64,000 nt of DNA from a virus: the IMG/VR virus record IMGVR_UViG_3300045988_142718, one strand, 5' to 3'. Positions 6,221-53,137 of the stretch are shown here, in pieces. The position numbers were made by a program, and so were the translations under genes. Numbering within the stretch: position 1 is the first letter of the stretch; each line of letters begins with the position of its first letter. Below the pieces are notes generated by a model. That model was not told the origin of the DNA. It saw nothing but the letters and a program-made list of their open reading frames with translations, and searched no databases.

Positions 6221-7677
6221 ACACAGTTAAAATTACATTGACAGGAAATAAGGGGACTCTATCTGGGCCCCCTGTTTTGTTGAAAAAGGTCTATGATAGG
6301 CTTCGGATCAAACATCCTAATGCTTGGTATTTAATGCAAAGAACCCGGGGTAAATGGGATGGGTATGTAAAATACCTCTCAGATTATGGGGACTTCCAAA
6401 TAGGATTATTAAATCACATCTGTAAGCAATTAAAGGAATTAGATTCATCAGTAAAAATTATAATTCAAGATAACAGGTTAAAGTTACCAATTAAACCAAA
6501 GATGGTAACTAGATTAGGCAATTATCAATTAAGAGATATACAAAAAGATGTAATCAAAAGCTTTATTAATAATTCTGTTGAGGGCCATCCTTTTTATATA
6601 GGTGTAATCAATGCAGCAACCAATAGCGGAAAAACACTTATCATGTCTGCTATACATGAGTGTTTTCAAAGGAAGTTGAGAACTTTAGTGATTATTAATA
6701 ATTCCCAAATCTTTGCTCAAGCCAAAAAAGAATACAGGGAATATTTGCCTGGTGAAGATATTCAATTTATTCAAGGCAAAAATCTGAAATTTGGAAATTT
6801 CAATGTTGGGATGGTTCAAACAATGTCTCAGAAAATTAAAGAGATTCGAAATGAATTATCCAAGATTGATATTGTTTTGGTTGATGAAGCTGATGTTGCT
6901 GATAATAAACAATTCAAAACTGTGTTAAGTTATCTCTATAATGTTCGAATAAGATTGGGATTATCCGGGAGTATTTATATGTCCAAATTAAAAAAGGACC
7001 TTATTCATAATATGAACCTTCGAAGTTTCTTTGGTGATGAGATCCATATTATTACCAAACAAGATATGGTAAAGAAAGGATATTCTACACCGGTGATAAT
7101 TAAGATCACAGAGGGAAACTCACATAATCCTCATTTAGTAGCGGATGGATGGCTCGATACATTTAAAAAGGCAGTTATAGAAGATCCAGTAGCAAAAAAG
7201 AAATCAGCTGAAAGAGTTTTATATAATATTAAATATAATCGACTACCAGCAATTGTTGTTACTCGATTTATTGAACATGCGGAAAGTTTATATAAATATT
7301 ATACTAATCACCCAGAACTCAAGGATTATAATATAAGGGTAATCGATCACACATCGAAAAACCGAGAATCCATAATTAACCAATTTGCTCAGGGAAAAAT
7401 CGATGTATTAATCACCACCTATATTATAAAGCGAGGTATAAATTTACCTTTAGCTGTTTATTTACAGAATGCAGCTGGCTCAGATTCAGAGGAAGATATT
7501 TCCCAAATCTGTGGTCGTATGGAAAGAACATTTAAAGGTAAAAAGAAATCCTATCTCGATGATATGTATTATTATGGGCAATATTTAGAACGGCATAGTA
7601 AACATCGTATCAATTATTATATAAGGACTGGAATGAAAGTTATTAATCTTAAAAAGAAACGAAATGGAAAGCTATGA
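6217..7677 (+). CDS. Superfamily-2 DEAD/DEAH-type helicase
   Basis: Motif I is AATNSGKT, motif II is VLVDEADV, motif VI is QICGRMERT. ATG at 6217 overlaps the upstream stop (ATGA); the track start at 6196 is a TTG. Confidence 0.7.
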   Translation: MNTVKITLTGNKGTLSGPPVLLKKVYDRLRIKHPNAWYLMQRTRGKWDGYVKYLSDYGDFQIGLLNHICKQLKELDSSVKIIIQDNRLKLPIKPKMVTRLGNYQLRDIQKDVIKSFINNSVEGHPFYIGVINAATNSGKTLIMSAIHECFQRKLRTLVIINNSQIFAQAKKEYREYLPGEDIQFIQGKNLKFGNFNVGMVQTMSQKIKEIRNELSKIDIVLVDEADVADNKQFKTVLSYLYNVRIRLGLSGSIYMSKLKKDLIHNMNLRSFFGDEIHIITKQDMVKKGYSTPVIIKITEGNSHNPHLVADGWLDTFKKAVIEDPVAKKKSAERVLYNIKYNRLPAIVVTRFIEHAESLYKYYTNHPELKDYNIRVIDHTSKNRESIINQFAQGKIDVLITTYIIKRGINLPLAVYLQNAAGSDSEEDISQICGRMERTFKGKKKSYLDDMYYYGQYLERHSKHRINYYIRTGMKVINLKKKRNGKL

Positions 7678-7744
7678 TTGGGATTGGGAGGATGATGAAG
7701 ATATCCCAGATTATGAAGAGGATGATTCTTTTGAGATACCTTAA
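7664..7744 (+). CDS. 26-aa highly acidic ORF overlapping the helicase 3' end (small peptide or +1-frame C-terminal tail)
   Basis: MESYDWDWEDDEDIPDYEEDDSFEIP. Lies in the +1 frame relative to the helicase, and that frame stays open back across the A-run CTTAAAAAGAAA. Confidence 0.25.
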   Translation: MESYDWDWEDDEDIPDYEEDDSFEIP

Positions 7745-7977
7745 TTTTTCTGAGAAAACTAACTAAGCAAAAAAGCTAAGCTTTAAATAAGTTTAGGTTT
7801 TTAGGTTAGTTTTGGGGGGAAGGAAAAGAAGATATAGATAAAGAATATCAGAATAGAAAGATAGAAATTCTCAATATAAAGAAAATAGGATATCAAATAT
7901 CAAGGATTAAGGATATAAGGATATCCTATTATCATTTATAAAGGAAATTACATAATGTAATAAAGCATTAAATAAAT

Positions 7978-8451
7978 ATGATACAAACATTAACACTTTC
8001 AAGTAGGAATACTGGAGATTATTTTTTATCTTCAGATGGTCTCCAATTATATCATCGAGAAAGGGACCTAATTAATTTAAATCTGTATGATGATTGCTTT
8101 GGGTGTGTATTTTATATTCCTTCAAATAGGCAATCCTGTTTTAAATGTGAAAAACTCCCTGATGTAGAATGTTTAGCTCAATCTAATTTTCAAATGGTTG
8201 ATGTATATTATTCGTTTATGATTTTATATGAAAACTTAGAATCAGCTGGGTTGAAGATGTATACCAGTTTGAATGAGATACAAAATATGCTTTCAGAGGA
8301 TATTCAAAGTCTATTTATATCTGCGTACAATACATTGCTCACTAAAGATATACTTAGAATTCTTAAAAAGCCTTTAAATAAGGGATATGAATTAGAGTTA
8401 TCAGTAAGAAATGATGAATTAATGATTAAATATACATGGAAACAGAATTAG
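7978..8451 (+). CDS. Hypothetical protein
   Basis: 157-aa ORF after a 233-bp intergenic region. Confidence 0.55.
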   Translation: MIQTLTLSSRNTGDYFLSSDGLQLYHRERDLINLNLYDDCFGCVFYIPSNRQSCFKCEKLPDVECLAQSNFQMVDVYYSFMILYENLESAGLKMYTSLNEIQNMLSEDIQSLFISAYNTLLTKDILRILKKPLNKGYELELSVRNDELMIKYTWKQN

Positions 8452-8792
8452 AAAAACTTGAAAAACAGAGAAAAGACCTTTTCAACGAACTGGATTTGTT
8501 AAGGGAATTTGAAACAGAATCAATGATTGATTATAATGAGCCTATTGATTGTAAAGCTGATCAGGAGCTTAGTTTGGTTCCTCGAGGTGCTTGCAAATAT
8601 TGCACCTTACATTGTGATCAATGCTCTTTGAGATGTAACAGATTCCTTCAATATTATAATAGGAATAAGCTTATCTTTTCTAATAATCTGTTCAAGGTTA
8701 ATCCCAAGTATGAACAGAAGATTAAGGAACAGGTTATTTCTATAGATAAGAAAATCAAAATAATCGAATATAACAATGGCAAAGAAGAATAA
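8436..8792 (+). CDS. Hypothetical Cys-rich protein
   Basis: 118 aa with a CKYCTLHCDQCSLRC cluster. Confidence 0.5.
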   Translation: METELEKLEKQRKDLFNELDLLREFETESMIDYNEPIDCKADQELSLVPRGACKYCTLHCDQCSLRCNRFLQYYNRNKLIFSNNLFKVNPKYEQKIKEQVISIDKKIKIIEYNNGKEE

Positions 8793-9156
8793 ATTACCGG
8801 ATATTAAAGGAGCTCAGGTTTTAGTTCCCACCAATGTATCAGAGATTATTGGTACAAGAGATGATTGCTTTGGCAAAGAATATGACCTCTCTACATCAGA
8901 ATGTAAAAGATGCGGAGACTCTGAGTTATGTGCAGTATGCTTTGCTCAGTTTATGAATAAGACTCGCAAACAGGTAGAAGAAGAAAATACTTTCAAGGAT
9001 ATGGAAAGTATGGTTGATCCTAAACTTGTTGCTAAGTATATGCGGGGATTAAAAAGAAAAGGGTCAGAGAAAAAAGAAGTAATCCATGCTGCAATGGAAA
9101 AGTTTAATCTAGATAAGAAGACTACAAGAACCATTTATAAATCATTAAAGAAGTAA
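8776..9156 (+). CDS. Hypothetical Cys-rich protein
   Basis: 126 aa with CFG..CKRCGDSELCAVC. Confidence 0.5.
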   Translation: MAKKNKLPDIKGAQVLVPTNVSEIIGTRDDCFGKEYDLSTSECKRCGDSELCAVCFAQFMNKTRKQVEEENTFKDMESMVDPKLVAKYMRGLKRKGSEKKEVIHAAMEKFNLDKKTTRTIYKSLKK

Positions 9157-9158
9157 CC

Positions 9159-9989
9159 ATGGATAGTAGAAACATTAAAGAACCTACTCCTCAAATAGAG
9201 GGTGGAAAACATTTGGAGAAAATCTATGATCTCCAAAAAGAATTATTGGATTCTTACATTAAGATCGAAGGATTGCCTTCATATCCCATAGATGTAAATT
9301 CCAAAAAGAGCCAGATCATTCTAAAGGATTTTACTGGTAGGGTAATCGAAGAACTTGGAGAGGGATATGAATCTATGCTCAAGGTTTTCAATAAGAGATT
9401 AGATTACATAAAGGATATGGATAACAAAGAAACATTCCTTTATATTAAAGCTGAAGCACAAAACCTAAATGAAGAACTAGCTGATGCTTTACACTTCTTC
9501 ATGGAATTGCTTATCTACACAAATATTCATCCAGAAGATATTTACCAATACTGTAAAACAACAGCCAAGAATTTAGGGATTCCCTTATATGATTGCTGTT
9601 GCTTAAGACAGGTACTCAACTTTTCCAGAAACATGGTAATGGGATCAGAGATTGACCTACCCAATAAATCCCTTATCAAAATTGTCCATGAAGAAGATGA
9701 ATGTATCCCAGTGGGATGGGAAACTAGTGAAGACTTTGTTAGAAGATGTGCAATCCAATTATGGGATGTGACATATTCTTTATCTATTGCAAGGAATTGC
9801 CTTAAAAACAAGCCATGGAAACAATCCGGAGAATTAACAGATGAAAATCTGTATCAGAATTTACTTTGTGAATCATTCGTAAAATTATGCGGATTTTACG
9901 CATTAATGGGTTATACAGATAAAACCCTATTTGCAGTATACTTCAAGAAAAACATGGTTAATAAATTTCGTATAGCAAGTCGTTATTGA
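9159..9989 (+). CDS. All-alpha NTP pyrophosphohydrolase (MazG / dimeric dUTPase-dCTPase superfamily)
   Basis: Acidic metal-binding motifs EELGEGYE and NEELADALHFFMELL. Immediately upstream of the ThyA-family genes. Confidence 0.55.
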   Translation: MDSRNIKEPTPQIEGGKHLEKIYDLQKELLDSYIKIEGLPSYPIDVNSKKSQIILKDFTGRVIEELGEGYESMLKVFNKRLDYIKDMDNKETFLYIKAEAQNLNEELADALHFFMELLIYTNIHPEDIYQYCKTTAKNLGIPLYDCCCLRQVLNFSRNMVMGSEIDLPNKSLIKIVHEEDECIPVGWETSEDFVRRCAIQLWDVTYSLSIARNCLKNKPWKQSGELTDENLYQNLLCESFVKLCGFYALMGYTDKTLFAVYFKKNMVNKFRIASRY

Positions 9990-11756: not shown

Positions 11757-14700
11757 ATGGGCAAACCAAAAACAAAATATCACATCTTGGAGAACGAGCA
11801 ACAATTAGATATGTTAATTGATGCTTGTAAGAAAACTGGATATGCTTCGGTAGACTTTGAGACTACTGGTAATCGAATATATAATAATGATTTTTATCCT
11901 ACGATTTTAGGGGTATGCTTCGAACCAGGTAGGGCAGGAGTAATCCCTTTAGGTCATTTCGATTCGAAATTTAAAAAATCCTGGAAAACAAAGCTTCAGA
12001 AATTTGGAGAAGAAGTTATTGCTAACGAAAATATTGTTAAGGTTGCATGGAATGCTAAATTTGATATGCAAGTATTTCACAAATATGGTATCTTTCATAA
12101 AGGTAGGTTATTTGATGGGATGCTTGCTAAATATGTTTTGGATGAGGCTAAGCCAAATGATCTAAAGTCCATGGTTAGAAGGTTCCTTCCTAAATTTGGA
12201 GATTACGAAGAAGATTACGAGGGATGTAATCTACCCTGGGATCAAAAACCTTTATTAGGATTATCCCAGTACTGTGCTATAGATACTGATATGTGTTTAA
12301 GATTATTCCTATTCTTCGAAAAGAAGATGATGGATAAGAAATTCTATCATCTATTCAGAAATCTTATTATGCCAGCTTCTAACCTATTAACAAAGGTAGA
12401 GACAAGAGGACAAAGACTTGATAAAGAATGGCATGGGAAATTAATGGGGGAATATCCAAGAAGGATACTAGAAGCAGAAACCAAGGTAAGAGCCCTTAAA
12501 AAGGTAAAGAGATTTGAGAAATCCCTCATCCAACAGAGATTGGATAAAGCAATATCGAAGATAGAAGAAGAGATCAGAGAATCTAAGAAAGTAATAAAAA
12601 CATCAGATGATTCTCGAAAAATTGCTTCTGCTGAAAGGTCAATTAAAAATAGAGAAGAAAAGATTGCCAGATTAATGGCTGGAGAATTTAATACTAAATC
12701 AGAGAAAGCCATAATAGAACCCATAAATTTTGGGTCAGCTTCACAAATGACACAACTCCTTTTCACTGATCCAAAAGGATTCAGATTTCCAGTAGTAAAA
12801 TATACACAAAAAGATAAAAGGGATACCGATAACCCTTCTTCATCAGAAGCAGTATTATTGGAATTACAAAAAACAGATAAAACTGGATTTATTGATACGC
12901 TTCTAGAATTAAGGGGACTTAAACAGATTAATAATATGTTTGTAAAGGGATTTGCAAACTTAGTTCAAGATGATGGCAGATTGCATCCAAAATTTAATAT
13001 TCATGGTACTCGTACAGGGAGATTATCATCAGCAGACCCAAACAGTCAGCAGCTCCCCAGGGTTGCAACGGATCCAACAATTAGACGTTGTTTGGTTGCA
13101 TCTCCAGGTAGACTCTATCTAATGATGGATTATAGCCAATGTATAGATGGGGATTCTTATATCTTTTGTAATACCGGAATAAAGAAGTTAAAAGAGATTA
13201 TTCCTGGGAAAGATAAAATTTGTATGATTGACCCCCAGCATAAAAACAAACACCGAGTTCTCAATATAAAGGTTCTTGCAAATAAGGGTAAGGCAGAATG
13301 CCTAAGGATTACAACAAATACTGGTAGGCAACTGATATTAACAGAAGAACATCCAGTAAAAACTAAACAAGGATTTACATTAGCTAAAGACCTTAAATTA
13401 AATGGTACATTATATATCGAAAACTTATTCGGTACTAAATCTGTTGGTAGGCTTCTCATAAATTCAGATGAAGCATACATTGCGGGATTATTCTATGGTG
13501 ATGGTCATTACCCTAAAGAAAAATCTGGTAAAAGAAAACCAACTGATATGTCCATATTCTTTTCAACTGGATCGGACAGAGAGGAATTACAACCTTTACT
13601 GGATAATTACTTTGGTTGTGAATTCTATGGGCCAAAAAATACTTCAAGGGGTATTAGAGGTCATAGTGATAAGGTTCTCTCTTTTTATAAGAAATACCCA
13701 AAGAAGGATTCTCATGAAATGGAAATCCCAAAGAGGATCCTAAAGTCGGACTTCGAATCCAAGATGAATTTTATTGGAGGTCAAATTGACTCAGATGGTT
13801 CTATTGGTAATGGTAGGTTTAGGTATACTTCTGCTTGTGAACCTTATATTCGACAATTACAACTACTCTTTCAATCAGTTGGGTTTCATGGTATAATCAG
13901 AAGTACAACTACGATTTTAAATGAGAATGAGTATACAGAATATCATTTAATCGTAAATTATGGGTTATCCAGACTTAAGCCCTACTTGAGACTTAAAAGA
14001 AAAAAACAAGAAATTATTGATTGGGAATTGAGCAAACAATATGCCGTCCCTGCAAATAAAACCTCTCACTGTTCCACACAAAGAATACCTTTAGAAATTT
14101 ATCAAGATTTGCCCAGAACTTCAGAATTTCATAAAACTTATAGGAATTCTTTAAGAAAGGGTAGACTTATACACAGTACATTAGAAACATATATTGATGA
14201 ACTTTCTGAACTTGATTCTAGATGGTTGGATGTACATCATTTTATGTATGAGCAAATTACTAACATAGAAAAGGTTGGTAAACGAGAAGTATACGATATG
14301 GAAGTTGAAAACTTACATGAATTTAATCCCAATGGTATCCGGGTTCATAACTGTGAACTTAGACTAATGGCTCACCTATCAAAATGTAAAGGTTTGTTGG
14401 AAGCATTTGCAAAAGGTTGGGATCCTCACTTATCAGTAGCATGTAAAAAATATGGAGTAAATTACGATGATATTTATCCAATATATAAAGATGAACAACA
14501 TCCAGATTATACCACATGGAAAATTCGAAGAAAGCAAGCTAAGCACATTGTTTTCGGATGTATCTATCATATTGGTGCAGCTAAACTTGCAGAAGAACTT
14601 TCAGACCCAAAAACAGGGTTAGTAGTAACACCAAAAGAATCACAGGGATTCTTGGATGATTTTTTTAAGGACTTCCCAGAAGTAAAGAAGTTCATGGACA

Positions 14701-15260
14701 ATCAGATGAAGTTTATCCATAAGCATGGATACATAAAAACATTATTCGGTAGAAAAAGAAGATGCCCAGAGATCTTTGGTGATAATCAGATGCAAATTGT
14801 AGCTGCTGAGAATGCCGCAATCAATACCCCATCACAGTCTGCTGCTTCTGATATGGCATTGTTTACATCAATCCTAATTGATGAGCTCATTCAAAAAGGA
14901 GAATTTCCAGATTTACAAGAAGTAGGTACTGTCCATGACTCCATATATTTTGATACATTACCTCAAGACATCAATCCAAAGACCGTATATCAACTTTGGG
15001 ACATGGCAAGAAATCCCAGTACAAAAGAATGGTTCGGATTCCAAATCGATGACATAGATATGTCAATGGATTTCGAAGTAGGAAGGTCCCAGGGAGAAGA
15101 ATTACCCTTTGCAGTGGGATATGATTATAATCGATTATTAAATTTCAAAGGGGAATGGAAAGGGTCCAAGGAAGAAGAATATTATTTTTCACTGGTAAAC
15201 AAATGTAAATCAGTAGATATCAAGGACTATCCAAAGGTTTACCCAGAGTATTTCAAGTGA
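11757..15260 (+). CDS. polA: Family-A DNA polymerase with 3'-5' exonuclease domain, interrupted by an intein
   Basis: Exo motifs SVDFETTG, NAKFDMQV, YCAIDTD. Motif A is split: LMMDYSQ | intein | CELRLMAHLS. Motif B is RRKQAKHIVFGCIY, motif C is VGTVHDSIYFD. About 763 aa after splicing. Confidence 0.85.
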   Translation: MGKPKTKYHILENEQQLDMLIDACKKTGYASVDFETTGNRIYNNDFYPTILGVCFEPGRAGVIPLGHFDSKFKKSWKTKLQKFGEEVIANENIVKVAWNAKFDMQVFHKYGIFHKGRLFDGMLAKYVLDEAKPNDLKSMVRRFLPKFGDYEEDYEGCNLPWDQKPLLGLSQYCAIDTDMCLRLFLFFEKKMMDKKFYHLFRNLIMPASNLLTKVETRGQRLDKEWHGKLMGEYPRRILEAETKVRALKKVKRFEKSLIQQRLDKAISKIEEEIRESKKVIKTSDDSRKIASAERSIKNREEKIARLMAGEFNTKSEKAIIEPINFGSASQMTQLLFTDPKGFRFPVVKYTQKDKRDTDNPSSSEAVLLELQKTDKTGFIDTLLELRGLKQINNMFVKGFANLVQDDGRLHPKFNIHGTRTGRLSSADPNSQQLPRVATDPTIRRCLVASPGRLYLMMDYSQCIDGDSYIFCNTGIKKLKEIIPGKDKICMIDPQHKNKHRVLNIKVLANKGKAECLRITTNTGRQLILTEEHPVKTKQGFTLAKDLKLNGTLYIENLFGTKSVGRLLINSDEAYIAGLFYGDGHYPKEKSGKRKPTDMSIFFSTGSDREELQPLLDNYFGCEFYGPKNTSRGIRGHSDKVLSFYKKYPKKDSHEMEIPKRILKSDFESKMNFIGGQIDSDGSIGNGRFRYTSACEPYIRQLQLLFQSVGFHGIIRSTTTILNENEYTEYHLIVNYGLSRLKPYLRLKRKKQEIIDWELSKQYAVPANKTSHCSTQRIPLEIYQDLPRTSEFHKTYRNSLRKGRLIHSTLETYIDELSELDSRWLDVHHFMYEQITNIEKVGKREVYDMEVENLHEFNPNGIRVHNCELRLMAHLSKCKGLLEAFAKGWDPHLSVACKKYGVNYDDIYPIYKDEQHPDYTTWKIRRKQAKHIVFGCIYHIGAAKLAEELSDPKTGLVVTPKESQGFLDDFFKDFPEVKKFMDNQMKFIHKHGYIKTLFGRKRRCPEIFGDNQMQIVAAENAAINTPSQSAASDMALFTSILIDELIQKGEFPDLQEVGTVHDSIYFDTLPQDINPKTVYQLWDMARNPSTKEWFGFQIDDIDMSMDFEVGRSQGEELPFAVGYDYNRLLNFKGEWKGSKEEEYYFSLVNKCKSVDIKDYPKVYPEYFK
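13140..14351 (+). mobile_element. Intein (404 aa) with LAGLIDADG homing endonuclease, inserted in Pol motif A
   Basis: Starts CIDGDSYIF. Block B is LTEEHPV. LAGLIDADG motifs are YIAGLFYGDGHY and FIGGQIDSDGSI. Ends VYDMEVENLHEFNPNGIRVHN followed by Cys+1. Confidence 0.8.
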
Positions 15261-17436: not shown

Positions 17437-17463
17437 AAAATCCATATCACTCGTAATAAAGTT

Positions 17464-17501
17464 AAAGGGAGTATGCCTTCAATTGGGTTGCTCCCTTTTT
17501 T
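17464..17501 (+). terminator. Rho-independent terminator
   Basis: Stem AAAGGGAG / CTCCCTTT followed by a T-run. Confidence 0.55.
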
Positions 17502-17526
17502 AATCTAAAACAAATCATCATACACT

Positions 17527-19800
17527 ATGGCAAAGAAAGTAAAGATAGGGATAAAGGTCCCAACATCCAGCGAGCTTAATAGAAGGTATGGGAATTTATT
17601 AATTAATCCCAGTACACAAGAAAGACCCAAGTTATGGTTACCCTCAAGATTCTTAGCTTTAAATTATCAGTATGGTGGAGGAATCCCTTTTGGTAAGATA
17701 CTGGAAGTCATGGGCCAAGAATCAAGTGGGAAAGCAGTTCCTTTGGATTCTCCAGTTTTAACCCCTACTGGATATAAATTAATGGGAGAATTATCTCTAT
17801 CAGATAAAGTAATGGACCCAGTTTCTGGGGATCCAATCTCCATTATTGGAATATACCCTCAAGGGTTAAAACGAGTATACAAGGTTACATTTAGAGATGG
17901 TGCTTCAGCAGAATGCTCAGAGGATCATTTATGGGAAGTACAATTCAGATCTCACAATCAGTATAAGTCTCAAGTATTAACCCTAAAAGAGATTTTAGAA
18001 AAAGGGTACAGAACAAAAAGGGCTTCTGGTAAAGGTAAATTTAAATATAAATATAACATACCAAGTACCATACCGTTAAACTTTGAAAAAAAAGAGTTAC
18101 CCATTCATCCATATATATTGGGATACATATTAGGTGATGGAGGTTTAGGTAGAGCAAATTATATTATGTTTAATATTGGATTAGAAGATGCTGATTCATT
18201 TAAACATAATATTTCTAAGTTCCTTAAAGAAGGGGCTGAATTAGAAGATAAGGGCATCTATGAAAATCCATTTGGGAAAACTCATAGATTTATCTTAAAG
18301 GGGTATTCAAAGGAAATAAGATCCTTATGCTTAGAGGGGAAATTATCCTCAGATAAGTTTATCCCGGAAGATTACCTTTGGTCTTCAGTAGAAGATAGGA
18401 AGTACTTATTATCGGGATTACTTGATTCTGATGGTACTATTGGTGAACAGCACAATCGAGCAAAATACTCCTCACGATTTAAGTTCTCATCCACTTCTTC
18501 AAAGATGATAAAACAGTTAGTACAAGTAGTACGATCACTTGGGGGATTTATAACAGAACCAAAATCGAAGGTTCGAGAACGTCAGTTCGAGGGTTATGAA
18601 AAAAGAATTTCAAAGGAGATTAGAACTGGAGGTAGATTGCCATTTAATCCATTCATGTTAGAGAGAAAAAGAAAACAGTATCAAGTAAAAATAGAGAACC
18701 AAACCAAATCCGCTAATTATAGAAGGTCCATTATCGATATCTCATATATTGGTAAAAAAGAATGTCAATGTATAAAGGTAAGTTCTGAAAGAGGGTTATT
18801 CATGTTGAATGATTTCATTGTTACTCATAATACTCTGGTAGCTTATGACTTTGCATATTGTACCCAACAATTGGGAGGCCATGTTATTTGGGTTGATGCC
18901 GAGCAATCTTGGGATAATTCATGGGCAGAACAAAACGGAATAGAATTGGATAAAGTTACAATCATCAGTTCAACCGAGATAGAAACAATTTCTGATGCTA
19001 TTGCCGATTTATCCATTCTATGGAGAAGCAAGTTAACTCATAATGAACCAATCCTTCTAGTAGTGGATTCTATAGCTGCTATGGACTGTACAGAAAACAT
19101 TAATATAAAAATGACCGATTGTAAAGCCGAGATGGGGGGCAGAGCTAAGGCATTGTATAAAATGTTTAGGATCAGAACAGAACTTCTCTCTAAGCTGGGC
19201 ATCACTCAAATTTATATCAATCAATTAAGGGTAGCTTTAAATGTGGGATTTGGTCAAGATAACACTACTTCAACTGGAGGGAAAGCTCTTGGATTCTATG
19301 CTTCTATCCGTTCTGCATTTTATGCTGGAAAACAAGTTACTAAAAAGGTAAAGGGTAAAGAAAGAAAGGTAGGGAAGTTAGTAAGTATACGCCCAATTAA
19401 GAACAAGGTATCACCCTTGAGGAATACAATCTCTAAAGCTCCCATATATTTCAATCCAAAATACGTTGAATATGTGGGTTTTGATAGATATCATGGATTT
19501 GCAGATATTCTGGTTGAAGAAGACGTATTGGAGAAAACCTCTGGAGGCATCTATAAGTATAAGGGAAAAACAGTTGCAAGAGGTGAAGAGAAATTTCAAT
19601 CTGTAGTAGAAGAGGATGATAAGCTTAGAAGAAAATTGATTAAAGCTTGTGGAATAAACACTATCAGTGTTACCCAGAGTAAAATTGATGAGCTTGTAGA
19701 AAAGGGTATAAACCTCTTCCCAGTAGATGGAAATTTGGATTATGAATCTCAATCCGATGATTCAGAAGATGAAGAAGAGGAAGAAGAATTCGAAGATTAA
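17527..19800 (+). CDS. recA: RecA recombinase interrupted by an intein in the P-loop
   Basis: GKILEVMGQESSGK | intein | TLVAYDF..VIWVDAEQSWD..LVVDSIAAM..MGGRAKALYKMFR..IYINQLR..TTSTGGKALGFYASIR. About 391 aa after splicing. Confidence 0.85.
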   Translation: MAKKVKIGIKVPTSSELNRRYGNLLINPSTQERPKLWLPSRFLALNYQYGGGIPFGKILEVMGQESSGKAVPLDSPVLTPTGYKLMGELSLSDKVMDPVSGDPISIIGIYPQGLKRVYKVTFRDGASAECSEDHLWEVQFRSHNQYKSQVLTLKEILEKGYRTKRASGKGKFKYKYNIPSTIPLNFEKKELPIHPYILGYILGDGGLGRANYIMFNIGLEDADSFKHNISKFLKEGAELEDKGIYENPFGKTHRFILKGYSKEIRSLCLEGKLSSDKFIPEDYLWSSVEDRKYLLSGLLDSDGTIGEQHNRAKYSSRFKFSSTSSKMIKQLVQVVRSLGGFITEPKSKVRERQFEGYEKRISKEIRTGGRLPFNPFMLERKRKQYQVKIENQTKSANYRRSIIDISYIGKKECQCIKVSSERGLFMLNDFIVTHNTLVAYDFAYCTQQLGGHVIWVDAEQSWDNSWAEQNGIELDKVTIISSTEIETISDAIADLSILWRSKLTHNEPILLVVDSIAAMDCTENINIKMTDCKAEMGGRAKALYKMFRIRTELLSKLGITQIYINQLRVALNVGFGQDNTTSTGGKALGFYASIRSAFYAGKQVTKKVKGKERKVGKLVSIRPIKNKVSPLRNTISKAPIYFNPKYVEYVGFDRYHGFADILVEEDVLEKTSGGIYKYKGKTVARGEEKFQSVVEEDDKLRRKLIKACGINTISVTQSKIDELVEKGINLFPVDGNLDYESQSDDSEDEEEEEEFED
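17734..18831 (+). mobile_element. Intein (366 aa) with LAGLIDADG endonuclease; candidate class-3 intein
   Basis: Begins with Ala (AVPLDSPVLTPTG). Block B is SEDHLW (Trp two residues after His). YILGYILGDGGL and LLSGLLDSDGTI. Block F is ECQCIKV. Ends FIVTHN followed by Thr+1. Confidence 0.7.
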
Positions 19801-19928
19801 AGTAGTGGTAGCCATTGTCCCAAAAGGGAGGATGGTACCTTGCTTTCAAGTAGTATCTGCAGGCTCATTAAATAATCCCAGAGTTATATTTTTATATCAA
19901 GAATTACAATGAAAGAAGAAAGGATATT

Positions 19929-20510
19929 ATGAAAAAGAGAGATATTATTATAGATAAAGGTATATCTGGTGCTTACTATGCTGATAAGTTTTTACCAGAT
20001 AACCTACCTGGCTACCCCGGTTATCATATATCCAAGTTCGGCAAAGTTTATAGTCGATGGGATATCAATGGTAAAGGGGTACTGAGGGTTCGATGGCATT
20101 TAAAAAGGCCTCAACCTAACCGGTTAGGTAGGCTATTAGTAGGTATTACGAATGGAAAGAAAACTAAGAAATTTCAAGTACATCGATTAGTAGCAATGGT
20201 ATACATTCCAAATCCCAATAATTATCCAAATGTTTGCCATAAAGATAACAATCCCCAAAATAATCGTGCAAGTAATCTATATTGGGGAACTCAAAAAATG
20301 AACATGAACCAGGCATCACTGGAGGGTAGGATGGTATCCAAGGTAAAGGGGTTACCAAAGAAACTTTCTGATTTACAGATCAGTTATATACCAAAATTAT
20401 TTGAGAGAGGGTTTTCATATAGAGATATCTCTTATATTTTTAACAGAGAAGCTTCTACTGCTACAATTAAGAGGTGGCATTTTTTGTATATTAAAAAATA
20501 TGGATTATGA
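19929..20510 (+). CDS. Free-standing HNH homing endonuclease (NUMOD4 + HNH_3-like)
   Basis: GYHISKFGKVYS... HRLVAMVYIPNPNNYPNVCHKDNNPQNNRASNLYWGTQKMN. Confidence 0.7.
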   Translation: MKKRDIIIDKGISGAYYADKFLPDNLPGYPGYHISKFGKVYSRWDINGKGVLRVRWHLKRPQPNRLGRLLVGITNGKKTKKFQVHRLVAMVYIPNPNNYPNVCHKDNNPQNNRASNLYWGTQKMNMNQASLEGRMVSKVKGLPKKLSDLQISYIPKLFERGFSYRDISYIFNREASTATIKRWHFLYIKKYGL

Positions 20511-21427
20511 TAAAAAGTGAAGACCGGTTGTTATTGGTGGATGGGAATAATGTTATTTTGAGAGCTTACTTTTCCATGAAGAATAAAGGGTTCTCAAACG
20601 GTAAGATTCCAACGGGTGCAGTATATGGGTTCTTTAAAATCCTATACTCAAACATTGTAAGGTTTAAAATCACTTCAGTAGTAGTATGTTTCGACTGTCA
20701 TAGGTCTAAACTAAGGACTGATATGTACCCAGAGTATAAAGCTCATAGAAAAAGGATTTCAGAAGATTGGGATCAGATTTTCAAGGTACAGTTTCCCATT
20801 ATTAAACGTATCTTAAGGAACTTAGGAATTGTTTATGTATGGGATAACAAAAGGATCAATGAAATGGAAAGTGATGATTATCTTGCATTGCTTTATCAAA
20901 AGAATTGCTTATCTCAAGTATACCTATTATCATCAGATGAAGATTTTGTTCAACTTCTAGCATTTCCAAATATCAAATTGATAAATCCTTCTAAAGATAT
21001 GCTAGTAACACCTAAAAATTGTAAAGATGTATATGGGTATACACCAGAACAAGCAGTGGATATGAAAATCCTATGTGGAGACACATCTGATAACATTTCA
21101 GGAATAAAAGGGGTAGGTCCTAAAACTGCTTTAAAATTCTTAGAAGAGTATGGAAGTATAAGGGAGTTCTTAAAATCTGATCATGGAGATAAGAAATTCC
21201 CTAAATCAGAATTAGAACCAATATTCAAACGAAACCAACTGTTGATAGATCTGTTCTATTATCTAACAAAGGTTAATCCAGAAGTAATCCCATATCATGA
21301 TAAAAAACATGCAATGGATAAGATTACCTTAAATGAGATATTTGAGAAATATCAACTCAAATCTTTCATGTCATCAGAATTTATGAAACCATTCAAACAA
21401 TTAAAAACTTACAAATATGAAGAATAA
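20507..21427 (+). CDS. 5'-3' exonuclease / flap endonuclease (PIN + H3TH)
   Basis: LLLVDGNNVILRAYF; ESDDYLALL; GDTSDNISGIKGVGPKTALKFLEEYGS. Confidence 0.8.
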   Translation: MIKSEDRLLLVDGNNVILRAYFSMKNKGFSNGKIPTGAVYGFFKILYSNIVRFKITSVVVCFDCHRSKLRTDMYPEYKAHRKRISEDWDQIFKVQFPIIKRILRNLGIVYVWDNKRINEMESDDYLALLYQKNCLSQVYLLSSDEDFVQLLAFPNIKLINPSKDMLVTPKNCKDVYGYTPEQAVDMKILCGDTSDNISGIKGVGPKTALKFLEEYGSIREFLKSDHGDKKFPKSELEPIFKRNQLLIDLFYYLTKVNPEVIPYHDKKHAMDKITLNEIFEKYQLKSFMSSEFMKPFKQLKTYKYEE

Positions 21428-22127
21428 GAGGATAGTAATCTGTGGTGCAAGTGGGGTTGGCAAATCAACCATAGCCAGAGCTATTTCAGAGGAGTTTGGA
21501 ATTAAATATGTTTCTGGGAGTTTATATGATTTAATGCCCAATCTCCCAAAAAATCATTATGATTTAAATACCAAGTATGATACCAATGAAAAACACAAAA
21601 GGAATTTCCAAATCCTAAACCTAAGGTATCATCAGTATATGGAATTAGAAGGTAGCTTTGTTACAGATCGTAGTCTGTATGATACTGCGGGTTATGAGAT
21701 CCAAGAAAATTCCATGGGACTCCCAACCTGTGAAACACATGATTTTATCGAAAAGATAAATGCTATCAATTATGATCTTATGTTAAAGGAAAAAGAGATA
21801 ACTCATATTATCTTCATTCCTTACAAAAGAGCTCAATTTGAAAGATGGGAATTCGAAAACGATGGCAAACGTATTACCAATAAATACTTCCAATACATGG
21901 TAAGTGCTTGTCAAACTTTGGTATTCAATGTCATTGGAGTAGAGCAATCTTTTGGCCAGCTTATCAGAAACATATTCAGTAAAAACAAGGTTGGTACTTT
22001 ATTTGTACATGATACCGACTGGGAAGTAGAAGACGGATATGATCCAATCGATGGGATTAAATTCTTAGAATTAAATGAGATGGATCATAATAAACGAATG
22101 AAAGCAATTAGAAAGTTTTTAAAATGA
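21417..22127 (+). CDS. P-loop nucleoside/nucleotide kinase
   Basis: IVICGASGVGKSTIARA Walker A; DRSLYDTAGY motif as in deoxynucleoside/dNMP kinases. Confidence 0.55.
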   Translation: MKNKRIVICGASGVGKSTIARAISEEFGIKYVSGSLYDLMPNLPKNHYDLNTKYDTNEKHKRNFQILNLRYHQYMELEGSFVTDRSLYDTAGYEIQENSMGLPTCETHDFIEKINAINYDLMLKEKEITHIIFIPYKRAQFERWEFENDGKRITNKYFQYMVSACQTLVFNVIGVEQSFGQLIRNIFSKNKVGTLFVHDTDWEVEDGYDPIDGIKFLELNEMDHNKRMKAIRKFLK

Positions 22128-50629: not shown

Positions 50630-53137
50630 ATGGCGAAAAAGGAAATAGATACCTCTCATCTGAATGCTCAACAATTTAGAGAATTGGTTCAAGTACAAAA
50701 GGATGTCTTTTACTTCTCAACATTTGCTTATGTGGTTCACCCAGTAAGAGGTAAAACAAGGTTCCTTTTATACCCATACCAAAAATCAGTACTGTATTGC
50801 TTCCTAAAACATCGATTTAATATCATCCTAAAATTCAGGCAAGCGGGGATCACAGAATTGATTTCTCTTTATTGCTTATGGCTAACGATGTATCACCCAA
50901 ACAAAAAGGTGAACATCATCTCCATCAAGGATTCTGTAGCAAAGAAGGTATTAAAGAAAATCAAATACATGTACAAGAATCTCCCAGAACACTTAAAAGT
51001 TCCCATCGTAAATGGTAGAATGGGAGAGCTGGGAACAGCCTGTATAACAGGCGATACCATGATCCTTGGTACTAAAACTGATTTCCCAATTCAATCCATA
51101 GCTCCATCTGAAAAGGGTTATTTAGATGTATCCGGTTTGAATATAAGGGTTCTTACAGAGAATGGTACTTTTGAAAGGATTATGAAAACTTTCAATAAGG
51201 GTAAGCTAAAAACTTACACAATTGTAAATGATCGCGGGTTAACCCTGAGATGTACTCCAAAACATAAATTATTAACTACCAAAGGTTGGAAAACTGTAGG
51301 AGAGATCCTTAAAAACAATCTAACAGTGATTTTTAAGGATACCAAAGAACTTGTAAACTTAGCTCCACCAAAGGTAGAGAAACCAGTTACGGAGGAGATA
51401 AGAGAAACTAACATACCCGGGTATTGGGTATCCAATCTTGGTAGGGTGTTTACTACTAAAACCAAGAAAGGTAAAGGTCACGGTAGGGATGGTATAAATC
51501 CCTATGGGACAGAACTAAGGGTAATGGTTACTATGGTTAATCGACATGAGAGGGTCAAATTAACATACAAAGGTTCTCGTCAAGTGTATTCTGTACATAG
51601 ATTGGTATGGGAAGCTTTTAAAGGACCTATCCCCGAAGGGATGATTATTGACCATATCAATGGTAATGGTTGTTGTAATTGGATAACTAACTTGCAAGTG
51701 ATAACCTATTCGGAGAATACCAGAAGGGCTTTTACTATGAATAGAGTCTTAAAACAGTCTGTTCGTCAAACAGAGACATTATCATATAAACAGATAGGTC
51801 GAGTAAAAGAGCTTTTAAAAAGGGATAAATACCTAAATAGAGAAATAGCCAAACGAGTAAGTGGTGGGGATAAAGACCTATTGGATCAGAAGAAAGTATC
51901 TCGTATCAGTAGGGGAAAAAATTGTAGTGATATATATATCAGTAAGATAACTAAGGTAGATACTACCCTAGAAACCATATATGACATGGAGGTAGAGAAT
52001 TACCATAGTTATATAACTACTAATGGGTATATAAATCACAATTCTACAATTGAATTTAATAATGGTTCTTTTATAGAATCCATCCCAACTTCGGAAGAAG
52101 CAGGACGTTCAGAATCCCTTTCTTTATTGGTAATCGATGAGGCTGCAATTGTAAGATGGGCTTCACAGATTTGGTCTGCAAGTTTCCCCACACTTTCCAC
52201 TGGTGGGAGTGCTATCCTAAATTCAACTCCCTATGGAATTTCTGGCTTCTATCATTCAAAATGGGTTGAAGCGATTACAGATTCTGATTCTCCTTTTCAC
52301 CCTATTCGATTATATTGGAAAATGCACCCCGAGCGAGATCAGAAATGGTACGATACAATGTCCAAAGCTTTGGGCCCAAGAAGAACTGCCCAAGAAATTG
52401 ATGGTGACTTCCTTTCTTCCGGTAGTACTGTATTTGATCTTACAGATATTAAGGCAATAGAAGATACCCTATCGGAATACCCAGTAATCGAAACAAGGTT
52501 TAATGGCCAGTTAAGAATCATGGATAAACCAAAACAAGGTGTAAGATACTTTATTGGTGCTGACGTTGCTACGGGACGTTCTAATGACTACTCAGCTTTT
52601 ACTTTGGGTGATTCTAATGGAGAAGAAGCTGCAGTATTTAAAGGGAGAATCCCAGTAGAGAAGTATGCTAAAATCTTGGGCAATCTGGGAAAAGAATTCA
52701 ATTGGGCAACAATTGCCCCTGAAACTAATGATATTGGTTTGGCAGTAACAACTTTACTTCAAATCGAAGGATATCCTCAATTGTATTATCATAAAAAGCT
52801 TCTCAAAAAGAAAGGAAAGTCAAGGCCAGAAGTAGAACAATATCCCGGATGGATAACCACATCTAAGAACCGATCCCTAATCATTGATGGATTGGAAGAA
52901 GATATCAGAAAAGATAACATTACAATTAAGGACCCATTTTTTGTTCAAGAGGCTTATACCTTTATCTATGATTCAATAGGCAGGCCAGTAGCAATGGGTA
53001 AACACAACAGAAACAATCAAACCTCAGACATTGACATGGATGAGGAAACCTATTCGGATGATAGTATTTTTGGTAAAGCAATATACAATCATGTGAGGAA
53101 GAATTACAAACCTTCATTGATAATTCAACCTAAATAA
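50630..53137 (+). CDS. terL: Terminase large subunit interrupted by an intein
   Basis: FRQAGITELISLY (terminase-type deviant Walker A) ... GELGTA | intein | STIEFNNGSF..SLLVIDEAAIV (Walker B). C-terminal nuclease-domain-sized region. About 501 aa after splicing. Confidence 0.75.
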   Translation: MAKKEIDTSHLNAQQFRELVQVQKDVFYFSTFAYVVHPVRGKTRFLLYPYQKSVLYCFLKHRFNIILKFRQAGITELISLYCLWLTMYHPNKKVNIISIKDSVAKKVLKKIKYMYKNLPEHLKVPIVNGRMGELGTACITGDTMILGTKTDFPIQSIAPSEKGYLDVSGLNIRVLTENGTFERIMKTFNKGKLKTYTIVNDRGLTLRCTPKHKLLTTKGWKTVGEILKNNLTVIFKDTKELVNLAPPKVEKPVTEEIRETNIPGYWVSNLGRVFTTKTKKGKGHGRDGINPYGTELRVMVTMVNRHERVKLTYKGSRQVYSVHRLVWEAFKGPIPEGMIIDHINGNGCCNWITNLQVITYSENTRRAFTMNRVLKQSVRQTETLSYKQIGRVKELLKRDKYLNREIAKRVSGGDKDLLDQKKVSRISRGKNCSDIYISKITKVDTTLETIYDMEVENYHSYITTNGYINHNSTIEFNNGSFIESIPTSEEAGRSESLSLLVIDEAAIVRWASQIWSASFPTLSTGGSAILNSTPYGISGFYHSKWVEAITDSDSPFHPIRLYWKMHPERDQKWYDTMSKALGPRRTAQEIDGDFLSSGSTVFDLTDIKAIEDTLSEYPVIETRFNGQLRIMDKPKQGVRYFIGADVATGRSNDYSAFTLGDSNGEEAAVFKGRIPVEKYAKILGNLGKEFNWATIAPETNDIGLAVTTLLQIEGYPQLYYHKKLLKKKGKSRPEVEQYPGWITTSKNRSLIIDGLEEDIRKDNITIKDPFFVQEAYTFIYDSIGRPVAMGKHNRNNQTSDIDMDEETYSDDSIFGKAIYNHVRKNYKPSLIIQPK
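51041..52042 (+). mobile_element. Intein (334 aa) carrying a NUMOD4/HNH_3-type endonuclease
   Basis: Starts CITGDTMILGT. Block B is RCTPKHKLLT. IPGYWVSNLGRVF...HRLVWEAFKGPIPEGMIIDHINGNGCCNWITNLQVITYSEN. Ends IYDMEVENYHSYITTNGYINHN followed by Ser+1. Confidence 0.75.

What the first reader, a model, noticed from the sequence alone, without database searches (positions are those of the whole stretch)
17734..18831. RecA P-loop intein with the hallmarks of a class-3 (Trp-Cys-Thr) intein
RecA is split exactly inside Walker A (GQESSGK | ... | TLVAY).

- The insert has intein block A, but it begins with Ala rather than Cys or Ser (AVPLDSPVLTPTG).
- Block B reads SEDHLW, which places Trp two residues after the conserved His (position B12).
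- Block F reads ECQCIKV, which places a Cys where class-1 inteins carry Asp F4.
- Block G reads FIVTHN|T, which gives Thr at G5.
- The combination of a non-nucleophilic residue 1 with the W(B12)-C(F4)-T(G5) triplet defines class-3 inteins. These splice through a branched thioester on the block-F cysteine.
- Class-3 inteins are the minority class. This one also retains a LAGLIDADG endonuclease.
- The other two inteins in this phage look like standard class-1 inteins.
Basis: partly seen in the sequence, partly recalled or inferred. Interest (0 to 1): 0.65.

Follow-up and report, generated by a model that had tools for sequence, protein, structure and literature searches.

The report
Class-3 intein splitting a phage RecA

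Summary
ORF 17527-19800 encodes a 757-aa RecA precursor. Residues 70-435 (nt 17734-18831) form a 366-aa insert between Lys and Thr of Walker A (GQESSGK|T).

Intein-free homologues read GxxSSGK(S)LxAYDFAY, which fixes both boundaries. Ala is therefore residue 1.

Profile alignments place His65/Trp67, Cys346 and Thr364-His365-Asn366 on the experimentally defined residues of three class-3 inteins. These are the Bethlehem prototype (Trp67/Cys320/Thr339), Msm DnaBi1 (Trp67/Cys118/Thr137) and MchDnaB1 (Trp67/Cys124/Thr143).

Among 152 distinct related inteins retrieved, His, Cys and Thr are invariant and Trp is present in 151. Residue 1 varies (A, Q, Y, P, G, E and others).

AlphaFold gives a confident PI-SceI-like model (pLDDT 89.5), with a HINT domain plus a LAGLIDADG endonuclease.

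The most likely mechanism is splicing through a thioester on Cys346, which restores the RecA P-loop. The endonuclease mediates homing.

This is a new member of a known kind. A profile of the family hits more than 14,000 cluster representatives at E<=1e-30, and class-3 inteins with an endonuclease are common in phages. Splicing itself is untested.

Side finding: near-identical phages differ at four intein or homing-endonuclease sites.

The parts
17527..19800 (+). recA precursor ORF (757 aa, stop codon included)
   Evidence: ORF list. Pfam RecA 7.7e-29 for the precursor and 3.4e-35 for the in-silico spliced product.
17527..17733 (+). N-extein (aa 1-69), ending in Walker A GQESSGK
   Evidence: Sequence. 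Aligned with intein-free homologues P0042, P0047 and the L007 RecA.
17734..18831 (+). Intein, 366 aa (Ala1 to Asn366)
   Evidence: Boundaries come from empty-site alleles. Profile hits to class-3 intein structures. AF2 model with pLDDT 89.5 and a PI-SceI-like fold.
17734..17772 (+). Block A (AVPLDSPVLTPTG); residue 1 is Ala (GCA), not a nucleophile
   Evidence: It aligns to ALALDTPLPTPSGW of Msm DnaBi1 (6BS8).
17917..17934 (+). Block B core SEDHLW: Ser62 (B7), His65 (B10), Trp67 (B12)
   Evidence: It aligns to Ser62/His65/Trp67 of the Bethlehem prototype and to His65/Trp67 of MchDnaB1 and Msm DnaBi1. His is invariant and Trp is present in 151 of 152 family members.
18061..18708 (+). LAGLIDADG homing-endonuclease domain (approx. 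intein residues 110-325). Motif 1 is at 18118-18144 and motif 2 at 18406-18438.
   Evidence: Pfam Hom_end 21.5 bits (cut-off 21.1) and LAGLIDADG_3 19.3 bits (below the 22.5 cut-off). The motif Gly/Asp residues are near-invariant in alignment A2. Foldseek matches to PI-SceI at 1e-16 and I-Tsp061I at 2e-5.
18760..18780 (+). Block F core ECQCIKV; Cys346 (nt 18769-18771) is F4, the predicted initiating nucleophile
   Evidence: It aligns to Cys320 of the Bethlehem intein, Cys124 of MchDnaB1, Cys118 of Msm DnaBi1 and engineered Cys107 of gp41-1_WCT, which is Asp in wild-type gp41-1. It is invariant in 152 of 152 family members.
18814..18834 (+). Block G FIVTHN|T: Thr364 (G5), His365, Asn366 and Thr+1. 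Thr+1 is also the Walker A Thr.
   Evidence: It aligns to Thr339-His340-Asn341-Thr+1 of the Bethlehem intein and to Thr143 / Thr137 of the DnaB inteins.
18832..19797 (+). C-extein (aa 436-757), the RecA core from Walker A Thr onward
   Evidence: Pfam RecA stretch 438-633. The match is continuous after splicing.

Best explanation
The insert is a full-length class-3 intein, made of a HINT splicing domain plus a LAGLIDADG homing endonuclease. It sits between Lys and Thr of the RecA Walker A motif.

**Inferred splicing pathway**
1. The thiol of Cys346 (block F, position 4) attacks the Lys69-Ala70 peptide bond. Block-B His65 and Trp67 and block-G Thr364 assist. This forms a branched thioester that carries the N-extein.
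2. The acyl group moves to the hydroxyl of Thr+1, giving the standard block-G branched ester.
3. Asn366 cyclises and releases the intein.
4. An O-to-N shift restores GQESSGKT and therefore an ATP-binding RecA.

**DNA level.** The endonuclease domain is expected to cut intein-free recA alleles of co-infecting phages at the P-loop coding sequence and to drive homing.

**Shown here:** the anatomy, the boundaries, the family membership, the residue correspondence and the fold.

**Inferred from the family:** the chemistry and the endonuclease activity.
For: **Boundaries and residue 1.** Homologues with an empty site read GK(S)LxAY.

**Residue correspondence.**
- Family HMMs align query S62/H65/W67/C346/T364/H365/N366/T+1 to Bethlehem gp11 intein Ser62/His65/Trp67/Cys320/Thr339/His340/Asn341/Thr+1. 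These are the residues mutated in PMC2807308.
- A profile of 30 family members has 6RIX (MchDnaB1, 3.5e-24), 6RIZ (gp41-1_WCT) and 6BS8 (Msm DnaBi1, 8.3e-23) among its best PDB hits. The invariant Cys falls on Cys124/Cys107/Cys118 and the Thr on Thr143/123/137 (residue numbers).

**Conservation.**
- Among 152 distinct related inteins, H 152, W 151, C 152, T 150/150, H 150/150, N 149/149 and +1 T/S 149/149. Residue 1 varies: A, S, Q, G, E, R, Y, F, D, M, P.
- A second sample of 220 inteins in 144 cluster representatives shows the same signature in about 200.

**Fold.** The AF2 model has pLDDT 89.5 and pTM 0.89. Foldseek finds PI-SceI at 1.3e-16 with TM 0.67, and the best-scoring mini-intein match is the class-3 DnaB intein 6BS8.

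**A working extein.** The spliced product gives one continuous RecA match.

**Selection.**
- Between the window and P0028, the intein is more conserved than the exteins (pN 0.175 against 0.25).
- Against L004, the intein has few changes, but they give omega of about 0.06.
Against: - There is no experimental evidence of splicing for this protein.
- The WCT signature alone is not sufficient. Grafting it onto gp41-1 gave mainly C-terminal cleavage (PMC7664689).
- Pfam's Intein_splicing model does not detect the insert, and LAGLIDADG_3 is below its cut-off.
- The homologues were retrieved by similarity to the query and aligned with HMMs built from the same family. The conservation counts are therefore not independent of the query.
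- Model coordinates could not be inspected, so the distance from Cys346 to the scissile bond was not measured.
Confidence: 0.88

Rival explanations
1. It is a class-1 intein with shifted boundaries, starting at one of the Ser residues of GQESSGK. A conventional N-terminal nucleophile would then start splicing.
For: Ser67 and Ser68 lie 2-3 residues upstream of the junction. Eight family members have Ser at residue 1.
Against: Intein-free homologues keep the whole GxxSSGK followed by S/T-L-x-A-Y, so any shift would delete Walker A residues. F4 is Cys rather than Asp, and B12 is Trp. Residue 1 varies freely (Q, Y, P, E, R) in close relatives that keep WCT.
Confidence: 0.01
2. It is a class-2 (KlbA-like) intein, in which the +1 residue attacks the N-terminal junction directly without a block-F intermediate.
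For: Residue 1 is Ala, as in the KlbA inteins.
Against: Class 2 is defined by the absence of the WCT triplet, whereas this intein has it. To my knowledge, KlbA inteins use Cys at +1. The +1 residue here is Thr, a poor nucleophile for direct attack on an amide (my inference). The closest characterised relatives are all class 3.
Confidence: 0.03
3. It is a decayed or cleavage-only insert. The intein no longer splices productively, so the phage RecA is inactive or only partly matured.
For: Splicing was not tested. WCT alone can give cleavage without ligation. One relative, P0036, has lost its first LAGLIDADG motif, which shows that decay occurs in the lineage.
Against: All catalytic residues are intact and conserved across relatives 43-99% identical. 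The ORF is open in many near-identical metagenome copies, and one cluster alone has 633 members. Non-synonymous divergence of the intein is lower than that of the exteins. The exteins keep a complete RecA core.
Confidence: 0.06
4. It is the same class-3 intein, but it acts as a conditional switch. Cys346 is reversibly trapped by a disulfide or by metal binding with Cys344 (F2) or Cys61 (B6), so RecA maturation depends on the redox or metal state of the infected cell.
For: Msm DnaBi1, a P-loop class-3 intein, is reversibly inhibited by a disulfide between its F4 Cys and a second Cys, and by zinc. In this family Cys occurs at B6 in 107 of 152 members and at F2 in 74 of 152.
Against: These are only sequence hints, and the geometry was not measured. 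The extra Cys residues are not invariant. Nothing indicates that this phage experiences such a signal.
Confidence: 0.1

Closest known systems
Mycobacteriophage Bethlehem 'DnaB' intein (MP-Be; encoded in gp11, AY500153 nt 7260-9971), the class-3 prototype
   Same: No N-terminal nucleophile, and the same catalytic residues: His65, Trp67, block-F Cys, Thr-His-Asn|Thr. Both are full length with two LAGLIDADG motifs and are encoded by phages. The query-family HMMs align to it over blocks A-B (3.5e-19) and F-G (1.1e-10).
   Different: Residue 1 is Pro rather than Ala. The host protein is gp11, which this record annotates only as a hypothetical protein and the 2010 paper calls DnaB. The insertion site is not GK|T (the N-extein ends ...SQDQ). 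It is 341 aa against 366 aa. Splicing has been shown experimentally only for MP-Be.
Msm DnaBi1 (PDB 6BS8) and MchDnaB1 (PDB 6RIX/6RIY), class-3 mini-inteins in the DnaB P-loop
   Same: Ala1, Trp67, F4 Cys (118/124) and G5 Thr (137/143). Both are inserted in a Walker A loop where the +1 Ser/Thr is also the Mg-coordinating residue. They are among the best profile hits in the PDB (paper details).
   Different: They are bacterial mini-inteins without an endonuclease. The host is DnaB, +1 is Ser, and block B has DxxH where this intein has SxxH.
gp41-1 intein (PDB 6QAZ) and its engineered WCT variant (6RIZ)
   Same: The closest solved sequence by single-sequence search (6RIZ 6.4e-12, 6QAZ 7.2e-9). 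It shares CSE(E/D)HL in block B and the THN ending.
   Different: The natural gp41-1 is a split class-1 intein with Cys1, Phe at B12 and Asp at F4, and it has no endonuclease. Its WCT graft does not splice.
PI-SceI (yeast VMA1 intein) and archaeal VMA inteins
   Same: The overall two-domain architecture, HINT plus LAGLIDADG endonuclease. These are the best structural matches (E 1.3e-16, TM 0.67).
   Different: Class-1 chemistry (Cys1), a different host protein, and about 16% sequence identity.
Other inteins in RecA-family recombinases: Mtu/Mle RecA inteins and the Pyrococcus horikoshii RadA P-loop intein
   Same: The host is a RecA-family recombinase. The RadA intein also sits in the P-loop and blocks ATPase function until spliced (cited).
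   Different: To my knowledge these are class-1 inteins that start with Cys. The Msm DnaBi1 paper overlays the Mtu RecA intein as its class-1 comparator, with Asp422 at the block-F position. Also from memory, the mycobacterial RecA inteins are not inserted in the P-loop. Structural similarity of the Mtu RecA mini-intein to the model is weak (E 0.03-0.05).

Membership tests
Class-3 inteins | Residue 1 is not Cys, Ser or Thr | tested here: met
   Ala70 (GCA, nt 17734-17736). The boundary is fixed by empty-site homologues.
Class-3 inteins | Trp at block B position 12, two residues after the block-B His | tested here: met
   Trp67 aligns to Trp67 of the MP-Be, Msm DnaBi1 and MchDnaB1 inteins and to engineered Trp65 of gp41-1_WCT.
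Class-3 inteins | Cys at block F position 4 (Asp in class 1) | tested here: met
   Cys346 aligns to Cys320 (MP-Be), Cys118 (Msm), Cys124 (Mch) and Cys107 of gp41-1_WCT, which is Asp107 in the wild type.
Class-3 inteins | Thr at block G position 5, followed by His-Asn | tested here: met
   Thr364-His365-Asn366 align to Thr339-His340-Asn341 of MP-Be and to Thr137/143 of the DnaB inteins.
Class-3 inteins | [quoted passage not shown] | tested here: met
   Thr436 of the precursor (ACT, nt 18832-18834). In the family, +1 is T in 123 members and S in 26.
Class-3 inteins | A non-nucleophilic residue 1 goes together with WCT among relatives | tested here: met
   Relatives with A, Q, Y, P, G, E, R, F, D or M at residue 1 all keep W-C-T. 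The two class-1 inteins of the same phage have Cys1 and Asp at F4.
Class-3 inteins | Splicing strictly requires the block-F Cys and passes through a block-F branched thioester | not testable with these tools
   This needs expression, mutagenesis and mass spectrometry. It is inferred only from membership.
Inteins in general (HINT fold) | HINT splicing fold with blocks A, B, F and G | tested here: met
   AF2 pLDDT 89.5. Foldseek finds PI-SceI, 6BS8, 6RIZ and Hedgehog 1AT0. Pfam PF14890 gave no hit.
LAGLIDADG homing endonucleases | Two LAGLIDADG helices, each ending in a conserved acidic residue | tested here: met
   LGYILGDGG (129-137) and LLSGLLDSDGT (225-235). G134-D135-G136 and L229/D231/G234 are invariant or near-invariant in alignment A2. 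Helices 126-135 and 219-233 appear in the model.
LAGLIDADG homing endonucleases | Match to curated family profiles above threshold | tested here: inconclusive
   Hom_end scores 21.5 bits against a cut-off of 21.1, a marginal pass. LAGLIDADG_3 scores 19.3 against 22.5, a fail.
LAGLIDADG homing endonucleases | Site-specific cleavage of the intein-free allele | not testable with these tools
   This needs an in vitro cleavage assay on empty-site recA DNA.
Class-2 (KlbA-like) inteins | No N-terminal nucleophile and no WCT triplet | tested here: not met
   The WCT triplet is present.
Class-1 inteins | Cys or Ser at residue 1 starts an N-S/N-O acyl shift; Asp is usual at F4 | tested here: not met
   Ala1 and Cys at F4.
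RecA recombinase (host protein) | A RecA core with an intact Walker A after removal of the insert | tested here: met
   The spliced sequence gives one continuous PF00154 match (3.4e-35, residues 39-267) and reads GQESSGKT.

The most novel reading that the evidence does not exclude
The intein is more than a selfish passenger. It works as a conditional switch on phage recombination. The nucleophile Cys346 lies in a CxC motif (Cys344/Cys346) and faces a frequently conserved block-B Cys61. Oxidation or metal binding could therefore hold RecA as an inactive precursor until conditions in the infected cell change, as shown for the mycobacterial DnaB class-3 intein.

A related and less speculative reading is that this intein family spreads by hopping between P-loops of different ATPase genes within one phage lineage. 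The closest relative of the recA intein sits in the P-loop of the AAA-like ATPase gene two genes downstream of recA, in a near-identical phage.
Probability: 0.1. Interest if true: 0.55.

Novelty: new member of a known kind. Interest (0 to 1): 0.25.

Why it matters
The finding adds RecA to the list of P-loop ATPases that host class-3 inteins. I found no report of this in the papers searched. The 2025 actinophage survey lists four class-3 host proteins and does not mention RecA.

It also shows that standard annotation misses the element. Pfam's intein model is silent, and where a source names these 757-aa proteins it calls them RecA/RadA recombinase.

In practical terms it is a natural, full-length, Thr+1 class-3 intein closely related to the engineering workhorse gp41-1. 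That could be useful for comparing class-1 and class-3 chemistry on similar scaffolds.

Biologically, the phage lineage is a compact natural system for studying intein gain, loss and site switching. It has five intein sites and one free-standing HNH gene, and four of these elements differ in presence between two near-identical genomes.

None of this changes what is known about how class-3 inteins work.

Tried and rejected
- **Megablast of the gene against deposited phages:** no match. A protein-level search found only intein-free RecA relatives from human faecal phages, plus about 30%-identical inteins in other phage ATPases.
- **Bethlehem right arm** (gp62, annotated as DnaB-like helicase): no intein there. 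The prototype intein is in gp11.
- **Tori & Perler 2011 (PMC3133030):** not held in the library.
- **Literature searches for a phage RecA P-loop class-3 intein:** nothing specific found.
- **Profile search of the representative library with the mini-intein alignment A1:** It was repeated with the full-length alignment A2.
- **dN/dS:**
  - It was saturated against P0028 (69% identical).
  - Against L004 it rests on few substitutions, so it is only weak support.
- **L004 as evidence of homing:** rejected. Its identity profile shows a divergent C-extein cassette with a crossover inside the intein's 3' end. The cause is recombination between two intein-bearing alleles or an assembly chimera.
- **L007 as a clean intein-minus partner:** rejected. 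Its whole recA allele is only 66% identical to the window's.
Full report
**1. What is in the sequence**

The + strand ORF 17527-19800 encodes 757 aa. Pfam sees RecA (PF00154, 7.7e-29) in two stretches separated by a long insert. The insert gives weak Hom_end and LAGLIDADG_3 hits and no Intein_splicing hit.

- AVPLDSPVLTPTG at the start
- CSEDHLW at residues 61-67
- two LAGLIDADG motifs, LGYILGDGG (129-137) and LLSGLLDSDGT (225-235)
- ECQCIKV at residues 343-349
- FIVTHN at residues 361-366, followed by TLVAYDF

The flanks read GQESSGK | T, which is a RecA Walker A motif cut between Lys and Thr. When the insert is removed in silico, the 391-aa product gives one continuous RecA match (3.4e-35).

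**2. Boundaries**

A database search with the precursor returned hundreds of relatives from metagenomic phage contigs of about 50-85 kb. Many have an empty site and read GEQSSGKSLMAYDFAY or GEESSGKSLIAYDFAY.

Among the RecA-family proteins among the 120 listed hits:
- 38 have the site occupied, and all of these have Thr at +1.
- 58 have it empty, with Ser in 54 and Thr in 4.

The insert is therefore exactly Ala70 to Asn435. Residue 1 really is Ala, and no shift to a nearby Ser is compatible with the empty alleles.

In more distant occupied alleles residue 1 is Gln (P0038, P0041) or Tyr (P0039, P0040). The rest of the signature is kept.

**3. Test of the class-3 assignment**

The defining features were taken from the paper that founded the class (PMC2807308). 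They are a non-nucleophilic residue 1 that co-varies with Trp (block B position 12), Cys (block F position 4) and Thr (block G position 5), plus Ser or Thr at +1. Most such inteins sit in ATPase P-loops.

I tested the block positions by alignment to characterised inteins rather than by eye.

(a) Single-sequence search of the PDB. The best hits are gp41-1_WCT (6RIZ), gp41-1 (6QAZ), Msm DnaBi1 (6BS8) and MchDnaB1 (6RIX/6RIY).
- The query's HLW lies on the engineered Trp65 of 6RIZ.
- The second Cys of ECQC lies on engineered Cys107, which is Asp107 in the wild-type class-1 protein.
- The Thr of VTHN lies on Thr123.
- Residue numbers are from PMC7664689.

(b) Profile search of the PDB. A profile of 30 diverse family members (A1) has these best hits:

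| PDB entry | Intein | E-value |
|---|---|---|
| 6RIX | MchDnaB1 | 3.5e-24 |
| 6RIZ | gp41-1_WCT | 4.7e-23 |
| 6BS8 | Msm DnaBi1 | 8.3e-23 |

The invariant Cys column falls on Cys124 of MchDnaB1 and Cys118 of Msm DnaBi1. The Thr column falls on Thr143 and Thr137. These are the catalytic residues named in PMC7664689 and PMC6195587.

(c) The prototype. I located the intein in mycobacteriophage Bethlehem gp11 (AY500153 7260-9971; residues 141-481, starting with Pro). HMMs built from the query family align to it at 3.5e-19 (blocks A-B) and 1.1e-10 (blocks F-G). They place query Ser62/His65/Trp67/Cys346/Thr364/His365/Asn366/Thr+1 on Ser62/His65/Trp67/Cys320/Thr339/His340/Asn341/Thr+1. These are the residues whose mutation defined the class.

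All sequence criteria are met.

**4. Conservation among relatives**

A search with the intein alone found about 115 further proteins. They carry 25-43%-identical inteins, mostly in GK|T/S P-loops of other ATPases. The hosts include PhoH (at three different sites), AAA_24, SNF2, terminase, thymidine kinase, ABC, IstB-like and DnaB-like proteins.

Across 152 distinct intein sequences:

| Position | Count |
|---|---|
| B10 His | 152 of 152 |
| B12 Trp | 151 of 152 |
| F4 Cys | 152 of 152 |
| G5 Thr | 150 of 150 |
| G6 His | 150 of 150 |
| G7 Asn | 149 of 149 |
| +1 Thr / Ser | 123 / 26 |

Residue 1 is mostly Ala but also S, Q, G, E, R, Y, F, D, M and P.

An exhaustive profile search of 1.84 billion cluster representatives gave 44,961 hits at E<=1e-3 and 14,138 at E<=1e-30. 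In the top 144 proteins, about 200 of 220 intein copies show the H-W-C-T-H-N-(T/S) signature.

Two caveats apply. These sets were retrieved by similarity to the query and aligned with family HMMs, so they are not independent samples. What they show is membership of a very large and coherent family.

**5. Fold**

AlphaFold2 on a 24-sequence alignment gave a confident model, with mean pLDDT 89.5 and pTM 0.89.

Foldseek against the PDB finds the following:
- The whole-length architecture of PI-SceI (1.3e-16, TM 0.67) and the archaeal VMA inteins.
- LAGLIDADG enzymes for the middle domain.
- Among mini-inteins, the class-3 DnaB intein 6BS8 as the best match, followed by gp41-1 (including its WCT variant 6RIZ), the fungal Prp8 intein and MchDnaB1.

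I could not read coordinates, so active-site distances were not measured.

**6. How it most likely works**

By membership, splicing proceeds in four steps:
1. Cys346 attacks the Lys69-Ala70 bond and forms a block-F branched thioester.
2. The N-extein is passed to Thr+1.
3. Asn366 cyclises.
4. An O-N shift restores GQESSGKT.

Thr+1 is also the Walker A Thr, so RecA cannot bind Mg-ATP until splicing occurs. Msm DnaBi1 shows the same dual use of the +1 residue.

The endonuclease domain has both catalytic motifs intact. It is as conserved as the splicing domain between the window and P0028 (73% against 75% and 73% aa identity, with exteins at 65%). I therefore take it to be functional, at roughly 60% confidence. 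A relative, P0036, has lost motif 1, which fits the usual intein life cycle.

None of the chemistry is shown here. The failed gp41-1 graft is a reminder that WCT alone does not guarantee splicing.

**7. Context**

- The window is an AT-rich phage (33.8% GC).
- Its nearest deposited RecA relatives come from human faecal phages and lack the intein.
- recA lies in a replication and recombination module: PolA, Cpn10, gp32-like SSB, RecA, 5'-3' exonuclease, AAA-like ATPase, Mre11-like and SbcC-like genes.
- The phage's other two inteins, in PolA and in the terminase-like ORF, carry class-1 signatures.

**8. Comparison with what is known, and novelty**

- Class-3 inteins, their phage association, their preference for P-loops and their LAGLIDADG-bearing full-length forms are all established.
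- In actinophages they make up 287 of 784 inteins.
- What may be new is only the host protein. I found no report of a class-3 intein in a RecA P-loop. To my knowledge, the known RecA and RadA inteins are class 1; one search treats the Mtu RecA intein as class 1.
- Verdict: a new member of a known kind.

**9. Things seen on the way**

Contig L007 is 95-98.6% identical to the window on both sides of recA. It differs in four ways:
- It lacks the PolA intein precisely.
- It lacks the HNH gene next to recA.
- It carries an intein-free recA allele that is only 66% identical to the window's.
- It carries a class-3 intein in the P-loop of the AAA-like ATPase gene, which is intein-free in the window (ORF 21417-22127).

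That intein (P0124, 41% identical) belongs to the group P0121-P0124, the closest non-RecA relatives of the recA intein. Once again the empty allele has Ser at +1 and the occupied allele has Thr. This pattern suggests P-loop-to-P-loop switching within one phage lineage, together with either co-conversion or a target-immunity role for the Ser/Thr codon. Both ideas are untested.

Noticed in passing
window 21417-22127 (+); L007 6001-7752: This AAA-like ATPase gene (P-loop CGASGVGK|STIARAIS) is intein-free here. In a near-identical phage, P0124 (extein 95.8% identical, cluster of 983 sequences) carries a class-3 intein in that P-loop. That intein belongs to the group P0121-P0124, the closest non-RecA relatives of the recA intein (P0124 41% identical). 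This suggests P-loop-to-P-loop extein switching within one phage lineage.
   Followed up: partly
window 18832-18834 and 21417-22127; RecA homologues P0001-P0120: Thr/Ser rule at +1. All 38 occupied recA P-loop sites have Thr at +1, while 54 of 58 empty sites have Ser. The same holds for the AAA-like gene (empty GKS, occupied ...THN|T). Possible causes are co-conversion, a splicing preference or endonuclease-resistant target alleles. None of these was tested.
   Followed up: partly
window ~17566-19930 versus L007 3819-4988: In a phage 95-98.6% identical in the flanks, the whole recA gene is a different allele. It is intein-free, 389 aa long and only 65.8% identical at the protein level. The recA intein therefore travels with a divergent extein cassette and is not a clean presence/absence polymorphism.
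   Followed up: yes
window 13143-14351 (PolA intein within ORF 11757-15260): The class-1 LAGLIDADG intein in DNA polymerase A (DYSQ|CIDG...IRVHN|CELR) is precisely absent from L007, whose flanks are 95-96% identical (the L007 alignment joins window 13142 to 14352).
   Followed up: partly
window 19929-20510 (+): A free-standing HNH_3 endonuclease gene with an HTH_38 domain lies between recA and the 5'-3' exonuclease gene. It is absent at this position in relatives L005 and L007, so it is probably a separate homing-endonuclease insertion.
   Followed up: partly
window 19240-19275 (GFGQDNTTSTGG); P0025, P0031, P0037, P0040, P0041: There is a second intein site in this RecA family: GFG(Q/K)DN(T/S)|CLH...GVVVHN|T(S/T)TGG, with a class-1 signature and LAGLIDADG_2 plus Intein_splicing Pfam hits. 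It is empty in the window but occupied in P0025, which is otherwise nearly identical to the window and represents 135 sequences. It is also occupied in most of the more distant RecA relatives.
   Followed up: partly
L004 (ENA contig, 2497 nt) versus window 17461-19920: This is a mosaic recA. It is 97-100% identical over the N-extein, most of the intein and the 3' end, but 53-80% identical over the C-extein (18841-19740). Identity starts to fall within the last ~110 nt of the intein. The cause is recombination between two intein-bearing alleles or an assembly chimera.
   Followed up: partly
window 17914-17916 (Cys61), 18763-18765 (Cys344), 18769-18771 (Cys346): Extra cysteines lie next to the predicted nucleophile: a CxC motif in block F and a Cys at block B position 6. 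In the family, the B6 Cys occurs in 107 of 152 members and the F2 Cys in 74 of 152. This is reminiscent of the redox and zinc trap described for Msm DnaBi1.
   Followed up: no
window 50630-53137 (+): An 835-aa terminase-like ORF carries an intein with class-1 signatures (GTA|CITGD...YINHN|STIEF). Its endonuclease is an HNH_3/NUMOD4 type rather than LAGLIDADG.
   Followed up: partly
P0110, P0115-P0119 (metagenome PhoH-like proteins): Single PhoH-like proteins carry two or three related class-3 inteins at different sites: GK|A..., LPG|PQPLD... and MRGR|A.... This includes copies that start with Pro, like the Bethlehem prototype.
   Followed up: no
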